From positions 1 through 54,452 of the forward strand of contig CAZZND010000001.1 in assembly GCA_964655465.1 (NCBI GenBank): DNA of 54,452 nucleotides, read 5' to 3'. The notes under the pieces were generated by a model. The model made no database searches. It saw only the letters and a list, made by a program, of their open reading frames with translations, and had not been told where the DNA came from. The position numbers were made by a program, and so were the translations under genes. Shown here piece after piece: positions 24,555 through 54,452 of the stretch; position 1 is the first letter of the stretch, and the number at the start of each line of letters is the position of its first letter. Source of the stretch: an uncultured Actinomycetes bacterium. GTDB taxonomy: Bacteria > Actinomycetota > UBA4738 > HRBIN12.

Positions 24555-25808
24555 TTGTCATCCACCCACGCTGATCTTGTGATCGCGGCGTTCGCGATCG
24601 ACGAGATCGTCGAGGGGACCCAGACAGGGCGGGACGGCACGACGCTGATCGTGTCGCCACCGCAGCTCGCGGTCGGAGCCGGGGAACCGGCACTGGCGGA
24701 GGCCACGGTCGAGGTCGTCCGTCCCGGCGATCGCGTCCGCATCTCGAACGTCCTCGATGCCGTGCTGCCCGACGTGCGCGCGGACGACCCCGTGTGCACG
24801 TTCCCGGGTGCCCTCGGCACCCTCAGCCCGGCGGGGAACGGCCGGTTGCATCGCCTGCGCGGGGTCGCGGTCCTGTCGGTCTGCGACTGGCAGGCCGCCG
24901 GCCACGTCGAGCCCGACGACTTCCCGGATTGCGTCGTGGACATGGACGGGCCGGGCGCGTCCCTCAGCCCCTGGGGCTCGACGTGCAACGTCGTCGTGCG
25001 GGCGGTGCCGGCGACCGGCGCGCCGGTCGCCGACGTAGATCGCGCGATCCGGCGCGCGACGCTTCGCGTCGCGCGCACCCTCGCCGAGACAACCATGGAG
25101 GCTGCGCCCGACGACGTGACCACCTTCGGACCGCTGCGCGCCGCGCCGGACGACCTGCCTCGCGTCGCGGCCATCCTGCAGGTCGCCTCCGAGGGTCCGC
25201 TGACCGACACGTTCTTCTACGGGGCGCCGATGGGCGGCCTGGTTCCCACCGTGATCGATCCCCGCGAACCGCTCGGTGGCGCGTTGATCAACGGGGCGTA
25301 CGACTGGCCGTCGGTCCGCAACCAGACGGCGACGTACCAGGACCTCGCGCTCGTCCACGAGCTGATCGCCGCCGACGGCGAGCGTCTGCGCTTCGCCGGG
25401 CTGATCGTGGCGCTCGGCTACCTCAGCACGGCGTTCGAGAAGCAGCGTTCGGCCATGCTGTCGGCGCGTCTCGCCCGTTCTCTCGGAGCCGACGCTGCGA
25501 TCTGCACGACGTTCTCGTCGGGCAACTCCCACACCGACACGATGCTCACCGTGCGCGCGCTCGAGCGTATGGACATCGCCGCGGTGCCGATCGTGGCCGA
25601 GACCAACGGCGGGCTCACCGACCACGTCCCCGAGGCCGTGAGCATCGTGAGCGTGGGGAACGAGGACGAGCTCGTCGAGGCGTGGACGCCCGACCGCGTG
25701 ATCGGGAGCGACGGGCCCGCGCGCGCCGGCGAGCCCGTCCCGACGTGGGCGTACCTCGGCGCGACGGTGCAGACCGGTGACGGATGGCTCCAGGCGGTGC
25801 CGGCATGA
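24555..25808 (+). CDS. Glycine/sarcosine/betaine reductase component B, GrdE/GrdG/GrdI-family subunit (no mid-protein Cys, so GrdI-like)
   Basis: 417-aa ORF. From memory it is collinear with GrdE-family proteins (VEVVRPGDRVRISNVLDAV...FPGALG...GRLHRLRGVAV; CVVDMDGPGASLSPWGSTCNVVV; SSGNSHTD...PIVAETNG). Its stop overlaps the start of the GrdB-like gene (ATGA). The start is uncertain: TTG 24555 or GTG 24579. Confidence 0.72.
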   Translation: MSSTHADLVIAAFAIDEIVEGTQTGRDGTTLIVSPPQLAVGAGEPALAEATVEVVRPGDRVRISNVLDAVLPDVRADDPVCTFPGALGTLSPAGNGRLHRLRGVAVLSVCDWQAAGHVEPDDFPDCVVDMDGPGASLSPWGSTCNVVVRAVPATGAPVADVDRAIRRATLRVARTLAETTMEAAPDDVTTFGPLRAAPDDLPRVAAILQVASEGPLTDTFFYGAPMGGLVPTVIDPREPLGGALINGAYDWPSVRNQTATYQDLALVHELIAADGERLRFAGLIVALGYLSTAFEKQRSAMLSARLARSLGADAAICTTFSSGNSHTDTMLTVRALERMDIAAVPIVAETNGGLTDHVPEAVSIVSVGNEDELVEAWTPDRVIGSDGPARAGEPVPTWAYLGATVQTGDGWLQAVPA

Positions 25809-27094
25809 CGGTCGTGCACTACCTCAACCAGTTCTTCGCCGGCCTCGGCGGCGAGGAGGTGGCCGGCCACGAACCGATCCGCCTCGACGGACCGCAGGGC
25901 CCGGGACGAGGTCTCGCGGCCGAGGGTCTCGACGTCGACGTCACCCTCGCCTGTGGCGACGATCATTTCGGTGAGCACGAGGACGAAGCGCTGCGGACCC
26001 TCCTCGGCTGGATCGACGAGCTCGATCCGGACGTGCTCGTCTGCGGGCCGGCGTTCGGCTCGGGTCGCTACGGCTACGCGTGCGGCGTGCTGGCGCGCGA
26101 GGCCGCGCGGCGCGGCGTGCCGGTCGTGACCGCGATGACGCCCGACTCGCCCGGGGTGCTCGCTGCCGAGGGCGCGGCGTACGTCGTGCCGACCACGTCC
26201 AATGTCGCCGGCATGCGGGCGGTGCTGCCCGTCGTGGCAGGGCTCGCGAAGAGGCTCGCCGCCGCCGAGGCCGTGGGGGGGCCCGAGGAGGAGGGCTACC
26301 TGCCGCGGGGGCTCCGCGCGAACGCGCGGGCCGATCGCCCGGGCGCCGCGCGCGCGATCGACCTGGCGCTCGCCCGCCTGGCCGGCGAAACGATGACCGA
26401 GGTCGAGCCCTCCGGCGATCGGGTACCGCCGCCGCCCGCGCTGACGGACCTCTCGGATGCCACGATCGCGCTCGTCACGGAGGCCGGCTGTGTGCCACAG
26501 GGCAATCCCGATCGCTTGCCCACGCGTCGCGCCAACGTGTGGTTGCGTTATCCGATCGATGGGGTCGCGTCGTTCACCGCCGACCGGTATCAGTCGGTCC
26601 ACGCTGGCTTCGACACGACCGCCGCGAACGAAGATCCCAACCGCCTGGTGCCGCTCGACGCCGCGCGCGCGTTAGAAGCGGCCGGCAAGTTCGGTCGCTT
26701 GCACGACGCGTTCTACACGACGTCGGGCGTCGACACGCCGGTGGCCACGGCCGCCAAGTTCGGGCGCGAGATCGCCGAGGAATGCCGCGAGGCCGGGGTG
26801 CAGGCCGTGATCCTGACAGGCACCTGAGGGACAGGAACGCGTTGCGGGGCAACGCTGTCGAAGGAGTTGGAGCGGATGGGGATCCCGACCGTGTTCATCA
26901 CGGCGCTCCCGACCATCGCGCAGATGGTGGGCGCCAACCGGATCATGCGCGGTGTCTCGATCACGCACCCCACGGGCGACCCGTCGCTCGCGGCTGGGGA
27001 CGAGCTCGCACTTCGCACCGCGATGCTCGACCGCGCCCTGGACATGCTGCAGACCGACGTCGGGCCGCTGACGGTGTGGGAGGTCGAACGCTGA
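25805..27094 (+). CDS. grdB: Selenoprotein B of a Grd-type reductase (GrdB/GrdF/GrdH family); TGA 26825-26827 decoded as selenocysteine
   Basis: The N-terminus MTVVHYLNQFFAGLGGEE is the hallmark GrdB start. ORF 25784..26827 ends ...AVILTGT at a TGA. The same frame continues GTGTRCGATLSKELERMGIPTVFITALPTIAQMVGANRIMRGVSITHPTGDP..., which includes the 75-aa ORF 26867..27094. This reproduces the U-x2-C-x2-C Sec motif of GrdB. The product is 429 aa with Sec at residue 341. The symbol is family-level only. Confidence 0.88.
26838..26857 (+). other. Candidate bacterial SECIS hairpin for the GrdB-like UGA
   Basis: The 7-bp stem GCGTTGC/GCAACGC (26839-26845 and 26849-26855) has a G-rich apex (GGG). 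It starts about 11 nt after the UGA, and C26838:G26857 extends it across a bulged T. Confidence 0.55.
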
Positions 27095-28773: not shown

Positions 28774-29232
28774 ATGGAACTTCGAGGCAAGAAGGTGATC
28801 GCCCTCGGCGAGCGCGACAGCGTGCCCGGCGAGGCGCTCGCCGAGGTCGCCCGCTCGGCGGGCGCCGAGGTCATCGAGGTGCGCACGGAGTGCTTCGTCT
28901 GAACAGCTTCCGGTGCGATGGATCCTGAGAACCAGGGACTGATCAAGGGGATCGTCGAGGAACACGGCTCCGCCGACCTGGTCGTGCTGCTGGGCGCAGC
29001 CGACGAGGACGCGGTGGAGGTCGCGGCCCAGACGGTCCGTGAGGGCGATCCCTCGTACGTGGGTCCACTCGCCGGGGTCCAGTTGGGACTCCCCGTGCTG
29101 CACGTCTTCGAGGACCAAGTGAAGGAGCAGGCCGACCCGGTCGTCTACGAGGAGCAGGTCGGTTTCTTCGTGCTGTCCTTCGACACCGGCGCGATCATCC
29201 AGGCGATGCGGCGGGCCCGTGGCGAAGCCTGA
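28774..29232 (+). CDS. grdA: Glycine/sarcosine/betaine reductase complex selenoprotein A (GrdA); TGA 28900-28902 decoded as selenocysteine
   Basis: MELRGKKVIALGERDSVPGEALAEVARSAGAEVIEVRTECFV-[TGA]-TASGAMDPENQ...VVLLGAADEDAVEVAAQTVREGDPSYVGPLAGVQLGLPVLHVFE. The CFV-U-TAxGAMD motif and GPLAGVQLGLPV are diagnostic of GrdA. The ORF track splits the gene into the end of 28468..28902 and 28918..29232. The product is 152 aa with Sec at residue 43. Confidence 0.92.
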
Positions 29233-44990: not shown

Positions 44991-45112
44991 CGCTTCCTGG
45001 CAGCGGCCGACCGGCCGCCCGGATGGCCCTATCACCCGAATTCCTGGATCTCACCCAGAAGGTTCCCCTGAAGCGACGCGGCCGGCTCGCTGGGCCCCGG
45101 TCGAGGGCTACG

Positions 45113-46831
45113 ATGCCATCCATGTCCGATGATCCGGAGATCGTTCGTCGCATACGCGAGGCCGTCATCGGCGACGACGCGGCCGTGCAGGGCCCGTTCG
45201 GCGTCCGGCGGGTCACCTACGCCGACTACACCGCGAGCGGGCGGTCACTCGCCTTCATCGAGGACGTGATCCGCGACCAGGTCCTGCCGCTGTACGGCAA
45301 CACGCACAGCGAGTCCTCGGGGACGGGTCGTCAGACGACGAGGCTCCGCGAGGACTCGAGGCGGGTCATCCGCGATGCCTGCGGCGGCACCGACGAGCAC
45401 GTGGTCCTGTTCGCGGGCTCGGGCTCGACCGGTGCGATCATGAAGCTGATCGACTGCATGAACCTGTGGCTGCCCGCCGACCTCGACCGCCGCTACGGCC
45501 TCGCGTCGCACATCCCTGCCTCGGAGCGTCCCGTCGTGCTCATCGGCCCGTACGAGCATCATTCGAACGAGCTGCCGTGGCGTGAATCGATCGCGGATGT
45601 CGTCACGATCCCCGAGGACGCCGACGGCAGGATCGATCTGCATGCCCTGGAGCAGGCACTGCACGCCCACGAGGACCGGCCGCTCAAGATCGGCAGCTTC
45701 TCGGCCGCTTCGAACGTGACCGGGATCTTGTCGGACATGCAGGCGATCTCTATCCTTCTGCACCGCCACGGCGCCCTGTCGTGCTGGGATGCCGCGGCCG
45801 CCGCGCCCTACGTCGAGCTCCGGATGGCGCCGCACCGGTCGGGCTCTGAGGCGGACCTCGACTACGCCGACGCGATGTTCATCTCGCCGCACAAGCTCAT
45901 CGGCGGGCCCGGCACGCCCGGCGTTCTCGTGGCGCGGCGCGCCCTGTTCACGAACAGCGTGCCGAGCGTCCCGGGCGGAGGGACGGTCGAGTACGTCAAC
46001 GCGCTCGAGCACGTGTACGCGCCCGAGATCGAGCGACGCGAGGAAGGAGGGACCCCCGACATCGTGGGGTCCATCCGCGCAGGGCTCGTGTTCAAGCTCA
46101 AGGAGGAGGTCGGGGCGCCGTTCATCCGCGACCGCGAGGAGGAGCTGACCCACCGGGCGCTGCACCGATGGGAGGAGAACACCGCGATCGAGATCCTCGG
46201 GAGCCACGATCTGCCGCGCCTGTCCATCGTGTCGTTCGTCGTCCGTCATCGCGACCGGTACCTGCACCACAATTTCGTGGTCGCCTTGCTGAACGACCTG
46301 TTCGGCATCCAGGCCCGTGGTGGGTGCTCGTGCGCGGGACCCTACGGGCACCGGCTGCTTGGGATCGACCTCGAGCGCTCGCACGAGTTCGAGCGCGAGA
46401 TCCACCTCGGCTGCGAAGGGATCAAGCCCGGGTGGATCCGGGTCAGCTTCAACTACTTCATCGACGAGACCGTGTTCGGGTTCATCCTGGACGCCGTGGA
46501 CCTGGTCGCCACCGACGGGTGGCGGCTGCTGCCGTGGTACCGGCTCGAACCGTCGAGCGGGACGTGGCGCCACGTCGACGGGGCGGGCGAGGCGCCGCTG
46601 TCCCTCGATGCGATCCGGTTCGACGCAGCGGACCCCGTCGTCCCGGACCATCTGCTGCACGAGCCGGCCGCGCGGTTGCGGGCCTATCTCGACGAGGCGC
46701 GTGCTCTGCTCGCGTCGCTGCCGGCCCCGCCTCCCGGCGGTGATCTCACCGGCGACGTCGGTCCGGACTTCGAGCACCTGCGCTGGTTCTGGCTGCCGTC
46801 GGAGGCGGCCGCCGAGCTGATCCAGGGCTGA
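45113..46831 (+). CDS. Class-V-fold PLP-dependent enzyme (cysteine-desulfurase/NifS-like, long form)
   Basis: The ORF has two candidate ATGs, 45113 (5 nt after GAGGG) and 45122. It has YADYTASGRSL, YGNTHSE, FAGSGSTGA, the PLP-lysine region SPHKLIGGPGTPGVL, and a C-terminal GGCSCAGPYGHRLL block. Confidence 0.75.
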   Translation: MPSMSDDPEIVRRIREAVIGDDAAVQGPFGVRRVTYADYTASGRSLAFIEDVIRDQVLPLYGNTHSESSGTGRQTTRLREDSRRVIRDACGGTDEHVVLFAGSGSTGAIMKLIDCMNLWLPADLDRRYGLASHIPASERPVVLIGPYEHHSNELPWRESIADVVTIPEDADGRIDLHALEQALHAHEDRPLKIGSFSAASNVTGILSDMQAISILLHRHGALSCWDAAAAAPYVELRMAPHRSGSEADLDYADAMFISPHKLIGGPGTPGVLVARRALFTNSVPSVPGGGTVEYVNALEHVYAPEIERREEGGTPDIVGSIRAGLVFKLKEEVGAPFIRDREEELTHRALHRWEENTAIEILGSHDLPRLSIVSFVVRHRDRYLHHNFVVALLNDLFGIQARGGCSCAGPYGHRLLGIDLERSHEFEREIHLGCEGIKPGWIRVSFNYFIDETVFGFILDAVDLVATDGWRLLPWYRLEPSSGTWRHVDGAGEAPLSLDAIRFDAADPVVPDHLLHEPAARLRAYLDEARALLASLPAPPPGGDLTGDVGPDFEHLRWFWLPSEAAAELIQG

Positions 46832-53597: not shown

Positions 53598-54092
53598 ATG
53601 AAGGTGCTGGTGGCGACGGCGAGCAGGCACGGCTCGACCGCCGAGATCGGATCGTGGATCGCGGATGTGCTGACCGAGGCGGGATACGACGTGTCGTGCC
53701 TGGACGTGACGGCCGGCCCGGATCCACGTGACTTCGACGCGGTGGTCCTGGGCAGCGCGGTGTACGCGGGACACTGGACGAAGGAGGCCAAGGCGTTCGT
53801 GGAGGGCGCGGACGGCGGGTTCGCCGGCCGGCCCGTGTGGCTGTTCTCGAGCGGCCCGGTCGGCGATCCGCCGAAGCCCGAGGAAGAGTCCGTGGACGCG
53901 GCGAACGTCATCGCGGCGACCCGGGCCCGCGAGCACCGGGTGTTCGCGGGGCGCATCGTCAAGGCAGACCTTCACTTCGCCGAGCGCGCGATCGTCACCG
54001 CCCTGAAGGTGCCCGAAGGCGATTTCCGCGATCGGGACGAGGTCGAGGCGTGGGCGCGCTCGATCGCCGGCGCGCTGGGCGCCGGCTCGTGA
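53598..54092 (+). CDS. Flavodoxin-domain protein (HemG/flavodoxin_5-like)
   Basis: 164-aa ORF preceded by the RBS GGAAGGGAG. It starts MKVLVATASRHGSTAEIGSWIA, with VVLGSAVYAGHW. Confidence 0.8.
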   Translation: MKVLVATASRHGSTAEIGSWIADVLTEAGYDVSCLDVTAGPDPRDFDAVVLGSAVYAGHWTKEAKAFVEGADGGFAGRPVWLFSSGPVGDPPKPEEESVDAANVIAATRAREHRVFAGRIVKADLHFAERAIVTALKVPEGDFRDRDEVEAWARSIAGALGAGS

Positions 54093-54093
54093 G

Positions 54094-54186
54094 CGGAGGC
54101 GGACGGGAATCGAACCCGCCAGGGGGCTCGTCGCCCCCTCATCGGTTTTGAAGACCGAGGGGCCCACCAGGAACCCGGACGCCTCC
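54094..54186 (-). tRNA. selC: tRNA-Sec (anticodon UCA)
   Basis: The reverse complement reads GGAGGCGT-CC-GGGTTC-CTGGT-GGGCCC-C-TCGGT-CTTCAAA-ACCGA-TG-AGGGGGC-GACGA-GCCCCCT-G-GCGGG-TTCGATT-CCCGT-CCGCCTCC-G. Features are a 7-nt anticodon loop with UCA, a 6-bp D stem, a long variable arm (7-bp stem), a TTCGATT T-loop and discriminator G. It is 93 nt long and no CCA is encoded. A TAGCCT -10-like box (54199-54194) lies 7 nt upstream of the 5' end. Confidence 0.93.
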
Positions 54187-54316
54187 GACGCTCAGGCTAC
54201 CGTCGAACCGGCGCCGAGGACCGAGATCCTTAGTGAGTCCTTGGCTCGGCGTTGCCCGGTCCCTTGCGCGCGGCTCGCGAGCATGGGAGATGTCCGAGAC
54301 CCACAGGAGGGTTCGA

Positions 54317-54452
54317 ATGAACGGGAAGCGGTACCTGATGGCCGTCGCGATCGCCGGCACGATGCTCGCCGGCCTGATCCCCGCGGCGCACGCGAACGAT
54401 GCCGACGTCATCCGTCGCGGATCGTGCAGCGGCGCGAGCGACTGGAAGCTCA
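54317..54452 (+). CDS. Secreted protein, 5' partial (runs off the window)
   Basis: ATG at 54317 follows the RBS AGGAGGG. The signal peptide is MNGKRYLMAVAIAGTMLAGLIPAAHA. Confidence 0.55.
   Translation, partial: MNGKRYLMAVAIAGTMLAGLIPAAHANDADVIRRGSCSGASDWKL

What the first reader, a model, noticed from the sequence alone, without database searches (positions are those of the whole stretch)
54094..54186. selC (tRNA-Sec) 25 kb from the two selenoprotein genes, with no other Sec machinery in the window
A 93-nt tRNA on the minus strand has anticodon UCA, a 6-bp D stem, a long variable arm with a 7-bp stem, and discriminator G. These are the defining features of bacterial tRNA-Sec. Its presence independently supports decoding of the two in-frame UGAs. 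No selA, selB or selD is recognisable in the window. The ORF track instead proposes a spurious 90-aa ORF (54139..54411) across the gene. The eighth acceptor position is a T:C mismatch and the sixth anticodon-stem position a C:T mismatch in my hand fold, so the 8/5 versus 7/5 architecture deserves a look. tRNA-Sec genes are also occasional integration sites, but I see no integrase nearby.
Basis: seen in the sequence. Interest (0 to 1): 0.6.

Follow-up and report, generated by a model that had tools for sequence, protein, structure and literature searches.

The report
Ordinary actinobacterial selenocysteine tRNA gene
This is a genuine, working-looking gene for the tRNA that inserts selenocysteine at UGA codons. 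Its two "mismatches" are normal for this tRNA across the Actinomycetota and already described, so the finding is correct but ordinary.

Summary
ARAGORN and Rfam both call a tRNA-Sec (anticodon UCA, discriminator G73) at 54094-54186 on the minus strand. It is the only selC in this 3.03-Mb genome assembled from a metagenome (MAG).

The rest of the selenocysteine (Sec) system sits on other contigs:
- selA and selB are adjacent on C17.
- A UGA-containing selD is on C52.
- A UGA-containing formate dehydrogenase is on C289.

In better-assembled genus relatives, selC, the grd operon and selAB share one contig. selC lies 35-42 kb from grdA and 119-128 kb from selA.

Both hand-fold mismatches are lineage traits. 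Among 82 distinct Actinomycetota tRNA-Sec, the 8th acceptor layer is a standard pair in 7. The 6th anticodon-stem layer is a standard pair in 10. The 3' nucleotide can instead pair with the G before the T stem (60/82), which gives the 7-bp acceptor / 6-bp T-stem drawing published for mycobacteria in 2026 (PMC13449736). Covariation cannot decide between that drawing and an 8/5 fold with one non-Watson-Crick layer. Either way the domain keeps 13 layers.

There is no integrase on the contig and no att-like repeat in the assembly. A conserved TANNNT box 7 nt upstream suggests the gene has its own promoter starting at about G1.

This scan has reached the same verdict on several other actinobacterial genomes.

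The parts
54094..54186 (-). selC, mature tRNA-Sec (93 nt, G1 = 54186, discriminator G73 = 54094). No CCA is encoded: the next bases are CUC.
   Evidence: ARAGORN; Rfam RF01852 at 76.2 bits; sequence; MFE cloverleaf -53.1 kcal/mol, z -3.34
54180..54186 (-). Acceptor stem 5' strand, GGAGGCG. It pairs with 54095-54101 to give 7 Watson-Crick pairs.
   Evidence: helix 1 is 99.8% paired over 82 sequences, and 4 of its 7 pairs show changes on both sides
54179..54179 (-). U at position 8, opposite C 54102. This is the flagged U:C 'mismatch'.
   Evidence: Column 8:88 is a standard pair in only 7 of 82 Actinomycetota tRNA-Sec. It is U or A opposite C, or U opposite U, in all 30 relatives of the same order.
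54160..54176 (-). D arm: a 6-bp stem (GGG[U]UCC / GGGCCC) with one bulged U (54173 in the alignment's register) and the 4-nt loop UGGU.
   Evidence: Helix 2 is 95.9% paired, with 5 of 6 pairs changed on both sides; fold. Bulged D-stem nucleotides are usual in bacterial tRNA-Sec (PMC3711452).
54142..54158 (-). Anticodon arm: 5-bp stem and loop CUUCAAA, with anticodon UCA at 54151-54149. The flanking C 54159 and U 54141 form the unpaired '6th layer'.
   Evidence: Column 28:46 is paired in 10 of 82. Column 29:45 covaries: C:G 44, G:U 17, U:A 3.
54121..54139 (-). Variable (extra) arm: 7-bp stem AGGGGGC/GCCCCCU with the 5-nt loop GACGA.
   Evidence: Helix 4 is 98.4% paired, and all 7 pairs show changes on both sides; fold
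54102..54120 (-). T arm: linker G 54120 ('G48'), 5-bp stem GCGGG/CCCGU, loop UUCGAUU, then C 54102. G 54120 can pair with C 54102 as a 6th T-stem pair.
   Evidence: Helix 5 is 100% paired. Column 70:88 is G:C in 58, G:U in 2 and unpaired in 22 of 82, with no double change. The MFE fold draws it paired.
54194..54199 (-). TAGCCT, a TANNNT -10-like box ending 7 nt before G1. Inferred promoter of selC.
   Evidence: A TANNNT box starts at -15..-11 (mostly -13 or -12) in 47 of 57 actinobacterial selC loci, including all 30 of the order. Background is 0.0007 per position in this genome. Its function is inferred, not shown.
53598..54092 (+). Convergent flavodoxin-like gene. Its stop codon (54090-54092) ends 1 nt from the tRNA's G73.
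   Evidence: Pfam Flavodoxin_5, 80.6 bits; ORF list
54139..54411 (-). Spurious 90-aa ORF that runs across the 5' half of selC and its promoter region.
   Evidence: ORF list; no Pfam family. It overlaps a tRNA supported by covariation.
25784..27094 (+). Client gene grdB-family selenoprotein, with in-frame UGA at 26825-26827.
Evidence: The ORF stops at 26827 under table 11. Read-through gives ...AVILTGTUGTGTRCG....
28774..29232 (+). Client gene grdA (selenoprotein A), with in-frame UGA at 28900-28902.
   Evidence: Read-through gives ...ECFVUTASGAMD.... The UGA is kept in 4 genus relatives at 73-79% identity, each with '1 TGA'.

Best explanation
This is the single functional selC gene of an uncultured Actinomycetota bacterium.

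The pathway is inferred from established knowledge of bacterial Sec decoding:
- SerRS charges the RNA with serine, using the long extra arm and G73 as identity elements.
- SelA converts Ser to Sec using selenophosphate made by SelD. SelA recognises the 6-bp D stem and 4-nt D loop.
- SelB delivers the tRNA to UGA codons in grdA, grdB, selD and a formate dehydrogenase. SelB reads the 13-layer acceptor/T domain.

The acceptor/T domain is the actinobacterial variant. It has seven Watson-Crick acceptor pairs. A 13th layer follows, whose 3' C most probably pairs with the G that precedes the T stem (7/6) rather than with U8.

The gene stands alone, far from selAB. It appears to have its own -10-only promoter, placed so that transcription starts at or within a nucleotide of the mature 5' end. 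CCA is added after transcription.
For: Identity:
- ARAGORN calls tRNA-SeC, and RF01852 scores 76.2 bits at E 6e-14.
- The cloverleaf is supported over 82 distinct Actinomycetota sequences. 92.6% of cells are paired, against 75.8% in shuffles and 45-54% when partners are slid. The covariation score is 0.507 against 0.07-0.13.
- It is the only selC in the genome.

Machinery and client genes:
- selA and selB are adjacent on C17, and selD is on C52.
- The selD UGA sits at the catalytic SHGAG-U-ACK site.
- An FdhA-like gene on C289 has one in-frame TGA.
- grdA and grdB carry in-frame UGAs in the window.
- In genus relatives selC, grdA and selA lie on one contig.

For the 7/6 drawing:
- The MFE and centroid folds draw it.
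- Column 70:88 is paired in 60 of 82, while 8:88 is paired in 7 of 82.
- The same acceptor/T-arm sequence occurs in Mycobacterium, for which 7/6 was published.

Promoter: a TANNNT box lies at -13 or -12 in all 30 relatives of the order.
Against: - Nothing contradicts the tRNA-Sec identity.
- The 7/6 detail has no covariation support. G at column 70 never changes together with column 88.
- That G is conserved in all bacterial tRNA-Sec for the C15:G20a:G48 base triple (PMC3711452).
- 22 of 82 sequences can pair the 13th layer neither way.
The transcription start and aminoacylation are therefore inferred.
- The assembly has 7% estimated contamination and 324 contigs, so the link between C1 and the sel contigs rests on synteny in relatives.
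Confidence: 0.96

Rival explanations
1. The identity is the same, but the architecture differs. On this reading the tRNA keeps the standard bacterial 8/5 geometry. The 8th acceptor layer is a non-Watson-Crick U-C contact stacked in the helix. G48 stays a linker engaged in the C15:G20a:G48 triple, as in Aquifex aeolicus tRNA-Sec.
For: - The nucleotide counts match those of 8/5 tRNAs: 10 nt before the D stem and 8 nt between the T stem and G73.
- G48, C15 and G20a are reported as completely conserved in bacterial tRNA-Sec (PMC3711452), and all three are present here.
- 22 of 82 relatives have G-G or G-A at this layer, so a non-canonical layer is tolerated.
- 7 of 82 have a true C:G 8th pair with the same spacing.
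Against: - The thermodynamic fold prefers G:C over U-C.
- C is kept opposite G in 58 of 82 sequences. One of the two remaining G:U cases, L036, lies in the same order.
- Position 8 is never G among the 70 full-length tRNAs that carry the same 3' half.
- The published mycobacterial drawing is 7/6.
Confidence: 0.4
2. The gene is a decayed or suppressor-like pseudo-tRNA that is not used for Sec insertion. On this reading the two mismatches are damage.
For: There are two non-paired layers in a hand fold, no encoded CCA, and the gene lies 266 nt from a contig end.
Against: - The same two non-paired layers occur across the order and much of the phylum.
- The gene is full length and scores well above the gathering threshold.
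- It is present in 21 of 24 genus relatives.
- It is the only selC in a genome with intact selA, selB and selD and at least four UGA-containing genes.
Confidence: 0.02
3. selC marks the edge of an integrated mobile element, or contig C1 is contamination from another organism.
For: - tRNA-Sec genes do serve as integration sites. Nine other Actinomycetota contigs carry only the 3' part of selC (about 50-60 nt), and one of these (L100) abuts a tyrosine integrase.
- The MAG has 7% estimated contamination.
Against: - No repeat of the tRNA longer than 18 nt at E < 0.1 exists elsewhere in the assembly, apart from a 28-nt anticodon-arm match to tRNA-Ser on C99.
- No tyrosine-integrase match lies on C1, and none among the ORFs scanned on the 3' side of the tRNA.
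- In genus relatives selC, grdA and selA are on one contig at similar spacing.
Confidence: 0.03

Closest known systems
Mycobacterial tRNA-Sec, the 7-bp acceptor / 6-bp T-stem variant (RNA Biol 2026, PMC13449736)
   Same: - The acceptor and T-arm sequences are identical: GGAGGCGU ... GGCGGGUUCGAUUCCCGUCCGCCUCCG.
- The acceptor/T domain has 13 layers.
- The D stem is 6 bp, the variable arm is long and the discriminator is G73.
   Different: - In mycobacteria selC is described as part of a selC-selA-selB transcript, and nearly all copies encode CCA.
- Here selC stands alone. It lies 119-128 kb from selA in genus relatives.
- It has no encoded CCA.
- It carries a bulged U in the D stem.
- It serves grd-type selenoproteins as well as formate dehydrogenase.
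Canonical bacterial 8/5 tRNA-Sec (E. coli selC; Aquifex aeolicus structure, PMC3711452; Rfam RF01852)
   Same: It shares the UCA anticodon, G73, the strand lengths of an 8/5 fold and the G-U first T-stem pair. It also shares the G48 linker, the C15:G20a pair, the 4-nt D loop with GG and the long extra arm.
   Different: - The 8th acceptor pair is U-C instead of Watson-Crick.
- The anticodon stem is 5 bp rather than 6, with a C-U at the 26:44 layer.
12-bp tRNA-Sec variants (7/5 Cloacimonetes type, bulged types, 8/4; PMC5330540, PMC5389517)
   Same: They also deviate from a clean 8/5 drawing, and some occur in Actinobacteria, for example Rubrobacter.
   Different: [quoted passage not shown] This tRNA has 8 residues after a 5-bp T stem, which makes 13 layers.

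Membership tests
Bacterial tRNA-Sec (selC, RF01852) | Covariance-model match above the curated threshold, with anticodon UCA in a 7-nt loop | tested here: met
   76.2 bits against a gathering score of 47, full-length match. ARAGORN calls SeC (tca).
Bacterial tRNA-Sec (selC, RF01852) | Discriminator G73 | tested here: met
   G at 54094. The last column is invariant G in the alignment of 82 sequences, which were selected for G73.
Bacterial tRNA-Sec (selC, RF01852) | 13-bp acceptor + T domain | tested here: met
   13 standard pairs when drawn 7+6. Drawn 8+5, it has 12 standard pairs plus a U-C layer.
Bacterial tRNA-Sec (selC, RF01852) | 6-bp D stem with a 4-nt D loop | tested here: met
   GGG[U]UCC-UGGU-GGGCCC. 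The helix is 95.9% paired, with 5 covarying pairs and one bulged U.
Bacterial tRNA-Sec (selC, RF01852) | Long variable arm (stem of 6-9 bp) | tested here: met
   7-bp stem with a 5-nt loop. All 7 pairs covary.
Bacterial tRNA-Sec (selC, RF01852) | Co-occurrence with selA, selB, selD and in-frame UGA client genes | tested here: met
   selA at 491 bits, selB at 315 bits and selD at 363 bits. UGA in selD, fdhA, grdA and grdB.
Bacterial tRNA-Sec (selC, RF01852) | Serylation by SerRS, conversion by SelA, and binding by SelB but not EF-Tu | not testable with these tools
   This is biochemical. Only the sequence determinants are seen.
Actinobacterial/mycobacterial 7/6 tRNA-Sec variant (PMC13449736) | Seven acceptor pairs, with nucleotide 8 unable to pair with its 3' partner | tested here: met
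   U-C here. Column 8:88 is a standard pair in 7 of 82.
Actinobacterial/mycobacterial 7/6 tRNA-Sec variant (PMC13449736) | A sixth T-stem pair formed by the nucleotide preceding the T stem | tested here: inconclusive
   G:C is possible here and in 58 of 82, with G:U in 2 more. The MFE fold draws it. There is no compensatory change, and the G is conserved for another known reason.
Actinobacterial/mycobacterial 7/6 tRNA-Sec variant (PMC13449736) | selC directly upstream of selA-selB | tested here: not met
   selAB is on C17. In genus relatives selA lies 119-128 kb from selC. This is a feature of gene context, not of the RNA.
12-bp (7/5 or 8/4) tRNA-Sec variants | [quoted passage not shown] | tested here: not met
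   There are eight residues after a 5-bp T stem.
tRNA-gene-integrated genomic island at selC | A direct repeat of the tRNA 3' end, and an integrase on the 3' side | tested here: not met
   No repeat in the assembly. No tyrosine-integrase match on C1, and none among the ORFs scanned on the 3' side. The assembly is fragmented, so this holds only for what was assembled.

The most novel reading that the evidence does not exclude
The most novel reading not excluded concerns how the 5' end is made. In this lineage, and much of the Actinomycetota, selC may be transcribed from a -10-only promoter. That promoter is placed so that the primary transcript begins at the mature G1, or one nucleotide before it. 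The 5' end of tRNA-Sec would then be made by initiation rather than by RNase P. From my own recollection, not checked here, eukaryotic tRNA-Sec also has no 5' leader. This would sidestep the problem of RNase P measuring a 13-layer acceptor/T domain.
Probability: 0.3. Interest if true: 0.4.

Novelty: already known. Interest (0 to 1): 0.1.

Why it matters
The gene matters mainly for annotation. It confirms that the in-frame UGAs in grdA, grdB, selD and a formate dehydrogenase of this genome can be read as selenocysteine. It also shows that the 90-aa ORF laid over it should be dropped.

The comparative work adds a modest point. The non-pairing 8th acceptor layer, and the possible 7/6 redrawing published for mycobacteria, are not limited to that genus. 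They extend over much of the Actinomycetota sampled here: 75 of 82 distinct sequences lack a standard 8th pair. Covariation alone cannot tell 7/6 from 8/5 with a non-canonical layer.

Tried and rejected
- **Second selC or allo-tRNA in the genome:** the RF01852 hits that were fetched and checked are tRNA-Ser or tRNA-Leu; ten weaker hits were not checked.
- **att-like repeat of the tRNA 3' end:** blastn-short of the whole tRNA and of both halves against the whole assembly gave only chance matches of 12-18 nt. The one exception is a 28-nt anticodon-arm match to tRNA-Ser.
- **Integrase near selC:** there is none on C1. Six tyrosine-integrase matches lie on other contigs.
- **12-bp 7/5 fold:** rejected, because 8 nucleotides separate the 5-bp T stem from G73.
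- **Covariation proof of 7/6:** attempted on 82 sequences. There is no double change at 70:88, so the question stays undecided.
- **Conserved local synteny:** the convergent flavodoxin gene sits next to selC in only one of 29 relatives' loci, so the immediate neighbours are not conserved.
- **Sigma-70 consensus scan:** it found no promoter. The TANNNT box was found by aligning the upstream regions.
- **Literature search for 'tRNASec' with '7+6':** it found nothing. The mycobacterial paper came from a search on genus names.

Full report
**Observation**

ARAGORN finds a single tRNA in the 54,452-base window. It is tRNA-SeC with anticodon tca at 54093-54186 on the minus strand. A scan of the whole window against Rfam at gathering thresholds returns a single hit. 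That hit is RF01852 (tRNA-Sec) at 54095-54186, minus strand, 76.2 bits against a gathering score of 47, E 6e-14, covering model positions 1-91 of 91.

Read from the sequence, the mature RNA is 93 nt, from G1 at 54186 to the discriminator G at 54094. The next bases are CUC, so CCA is not encoded.

- Anticodon UCA in a CUUCAAA loop.
- A six-pair D stem.
- A seven-pair variable-arm stem.
- Discriminator G.
- A U:C at the 8th acceptor position.
- A C:U at the outermost anticodon-stem position.

The 90-aa ORF at 54139..54411 is a mechanical ORF with no Pfam family. It lies across the tRNA's 5' half and its upstream region.

**Is the Sec system complete?**

The window is the whole of contig C1 of a 3.03-Mb, 324-contig MAG (94% complete, 7% contamination). 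The rest of the system is on other contigs:
- selA (TIGR00474, 491 bits) and selB (TIGR00475, 315 bits) are adjacent on C17.
- selD (TIGR00476, 363 bits) is on C52. It has one in-frame TGA, which falls at the catalytic site...RFSHGAG-U-ACKLGP.... SelD is therefore itself a selenoprotein here.
- A formate-dehydrogenase alpha-subunit gene on C289 (616 bits) also has one in-frame TGA.

In the window, the grdB-family gene has UGA at 26825-26827 and grdA has UGA at 28900-28902. Earlier notes of this scan on the same window reached the same reading.

RF01852 finds no second selC. The next-best hits that were checked are tRNA-Ser and tRNA-Leu.

**Linkage**

Because the assembly is fragmented, I used better-assembled genomes of the same genus. 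selC is found in 21 of 24 of them. In G024, G006 and G005, selC, grdA and selA lie on one contig:
- selC to grdA is 35-42 kb, a range that also includes G021.
- selC to selA is 119-128 kb, a range that also includes G002.

The 25-kb spacing to the grd operon in this window is therefore a loose but conserved neighbourhood. selC is not part of a selABC operon. This also argues that C1 and the sel contigs belong to one organism. selD has no TGA in three of the five relatives, so Sec and probably Cys forms of SelD alternate within the genus.

**The two mismatches**

I collected tRNA-Sec genes found with the Rfam model, not by similarity to this sequence. The sources were 40 relatives and 150 genomes drawn across the phylum. 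I aligned the 82 distinct sequences that share the 8+5 spacing with G73.

The cloverleaf as a whole is strongly supported:

| Measure | Observed | Shuffled | Partners slid |
|---|---|---|---|
| Cells forming standard pairs | 92.6% | 75.8% | 45-54% |
| Covariation score | 0.507 | 0.178 | 0.07-0.13 |

The 8th acceptor layer (columns 8:88) is a standard pair in only 7 of the 82 sequences, always C:G. The outermost anticodon-stem layer (28:46) is paired in only 10 of 82. The next layer in (29:45) covaries: C:G 44, G:U 17, U:A 3.

Within the order, all 30 sequences have U or A opposite C, or U opposite U, at the 8th layer.

The exact 27-nt T-arm plus 3' acceptor strand of this tRNA occurs in Streptomyces, Mycobacterium, Pseudonocardia, Geodermatophilus, Kocuria, Nitriliruptor and Acidimicrobiia records. 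Among the 70 full-length tRNAs recovered that way, position 8 is U in 66 and A in 4, never G.

The mismatches are therefore lineage traits, not damage or sequencing error.

**8/5, 7/5 or 7/6**

The tRNA has 8 nucleotides between a 5-bp T stem and G73. It is therefore not one of the 12-bp variants described by Santesmasses et al., which have 7 residues there (PMC5330540). Nor is it one of the 8/4 tRNAs of Mukai et al. (PMC5389517).

The C opposite U8 can instead pair with the G that precedes the T stem. That gives seven acceptor pairs plus six T-stem pairs. RNAfold draws exactly this (MFE -53.1 kcal/mol, z -3.34). In an enumeration of 112 distinct sequences, 61 fold perfectly as 7/6 only and 12 as 8/5 only.

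On the 82-sequence alignment, the candidate pair 70:88 is G:C in 58, G:U in 2 and unpaired in 22, with no change on both sides.

This 7/6 drawing is already published for mycobacterial tRNA-Sec (RNA Biol 2026, PMC13449736). That tRNA has the same acceptor and T-arm sequence.

Against taking 7/6 as proven:
- In the Aquifex aeolicus crystal structure the corresponding G48 is a linker in a C15:G20a:G48 base triple. These three nucleotides are reported as completely conserved in bacterial tRNA-Sec (PMC3711452). The conserved G therefore has another explanation.
- A quarter of the actinobacterial sequences have G-G or G-A at this layer whichever way they are drawn.

I conclude that the 13-layer domain is kept, which is what SelB binding depends on in E. 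coli (Baron and Boeck 1991, cited). The 7/6 drawing is somewhat more likely than 8/5 with a non-canonical U-C layer. Sequence data cannot settle it.

The D stem is six pairs with one bulged U and a UGGU loop. Bulges there are common in bacterial tRNA-Sec.

**Expression (inferred)**

The consensus sigma-70 scan finds nothing. Aligning the upstream regions of relatives shows one conserved element in otherwise unrelated sequence. It is a TANNNT hexamer, here TAGCCT at 54199-54194, ending 7 nt before G1.

It starts at -15 to -11, mostly -13 or -12, in 47 of 57 actinobacterial selC loci, including all 30 of the order. TANNNT occurs at 0.0007 per position in this genome.

TANNNT is the usual actinobacterial -10 box (my own knowledge). 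Its position predicts a transcript starting at G1 or one base before.

On the 3' side, the stop codon of a convergent flavodoxin-like gene (Pfam Flavodoxin_5) ends one base from G73.

**Integration site**

None of the seven ORFs scanned between 45023 and the tRNA has an integrase domain. No tyrosine-integrase match lies on C1. No repeat of the tRNA's 3' part is found anywhere in the assembly.

In other Actinomycetota the idea does hold. Nine of the 80 loci printed by the 3'-half search carry only the 3' part of selC, from the anticodon arm onward. One of them (L100, an Acidimicrobiia MAG) abuts a tyrosine integrase gene.

**Verdict**

This is a genuine and complete but ordinary selC of the actinobacterial type. 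This scan has reached the same verdict for selC genes of several other actinobacterial genomes. I found the mycobacterial paper independently, before reading those notes.

Noticed in passing
L054, L066, L076, L086, L100, L113, L118, L126, L128 (other Actinomycetota genome contigs): These loci hold only the 3' part of selC, from the anticodon arm to G73, with an unrelated 5' side. They look like att-site remnants of elements integrated into selC. In L100 (521-1756, minus) a tyrosine integrase gene starts about 14 nt from the remnant.
   Followed up: partly
L263-L267 and L271 (second RF01852 hits in six Actinomycetota genomes): These are tRNA-Sec-shaped tRNAs of 89-95 nt with anticodon GCA, a long variable arm and U73. 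Five of the six also encode CCA. ARAGORN calls them tRNA-Cys. They resemble the selC* tRNA-Cys of Mukai et al. The passage read from that paper lists Firmicutes, Thermodesulfobacteria, Nitrospirae and Proteobacteria, but not Actinobacteria.
   Followed up: no
L091, L094, L097, L119, L120, L130 (those with informative titles are Geodermatophilus, Trujillonella, Modestobacter and a Mycobacteriales MAG): These selC genes have the same scaffold but the anticodon loop CUCUAAA, that is anticodon CUA. This fits the UAG-to-Sec recoding reported for Geodermatophilaceae (recalled from Mukai et al. 2016, not re-read). L056, L078 and L092 (Nocardioidaceae) have the loop CCUCAAA, with C instead of U at position 33.
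   Followed up: no
G000 C52:13619-14539 compared with G002, G005 and G024: selD carries UGA at the catalytic SHGAG-U-ACK site in this genome. It has no in-frame TGA in three genus relatives. Sec and non-Sec SelD therefore alternate within one genus.
   Followed up: partly
window 54121-54148, + strand: Read on the + strand, the variable-arm hairpin followed by the complement of the anticodon loop (CATCGGTTTT) scores as the only terminator-like site of the region. It begins 29 nt after the stop of the convergent flavodoxin-like gene, so the antisense of selC might end that transcript.
   Followed up: no
G000 C289:119-2005, minus strand: A formate dehydrogenase alpha-subunit gene (TIGR01591, 616 bits) with one in-frame TGA. 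It is a fourth probable selenoprotein gene of this genome.
   Followed up: no
window 45023-46831, + strand: A 602-aa class-V aminotransferase (Pfam Aminotran_5, 138 bits) lies 7 kb from selC. By my own recollection this fold family includes cysteine desulfurases and selenocysteine lyases. No link to Sec metabolism was tested.
   Followed up: no
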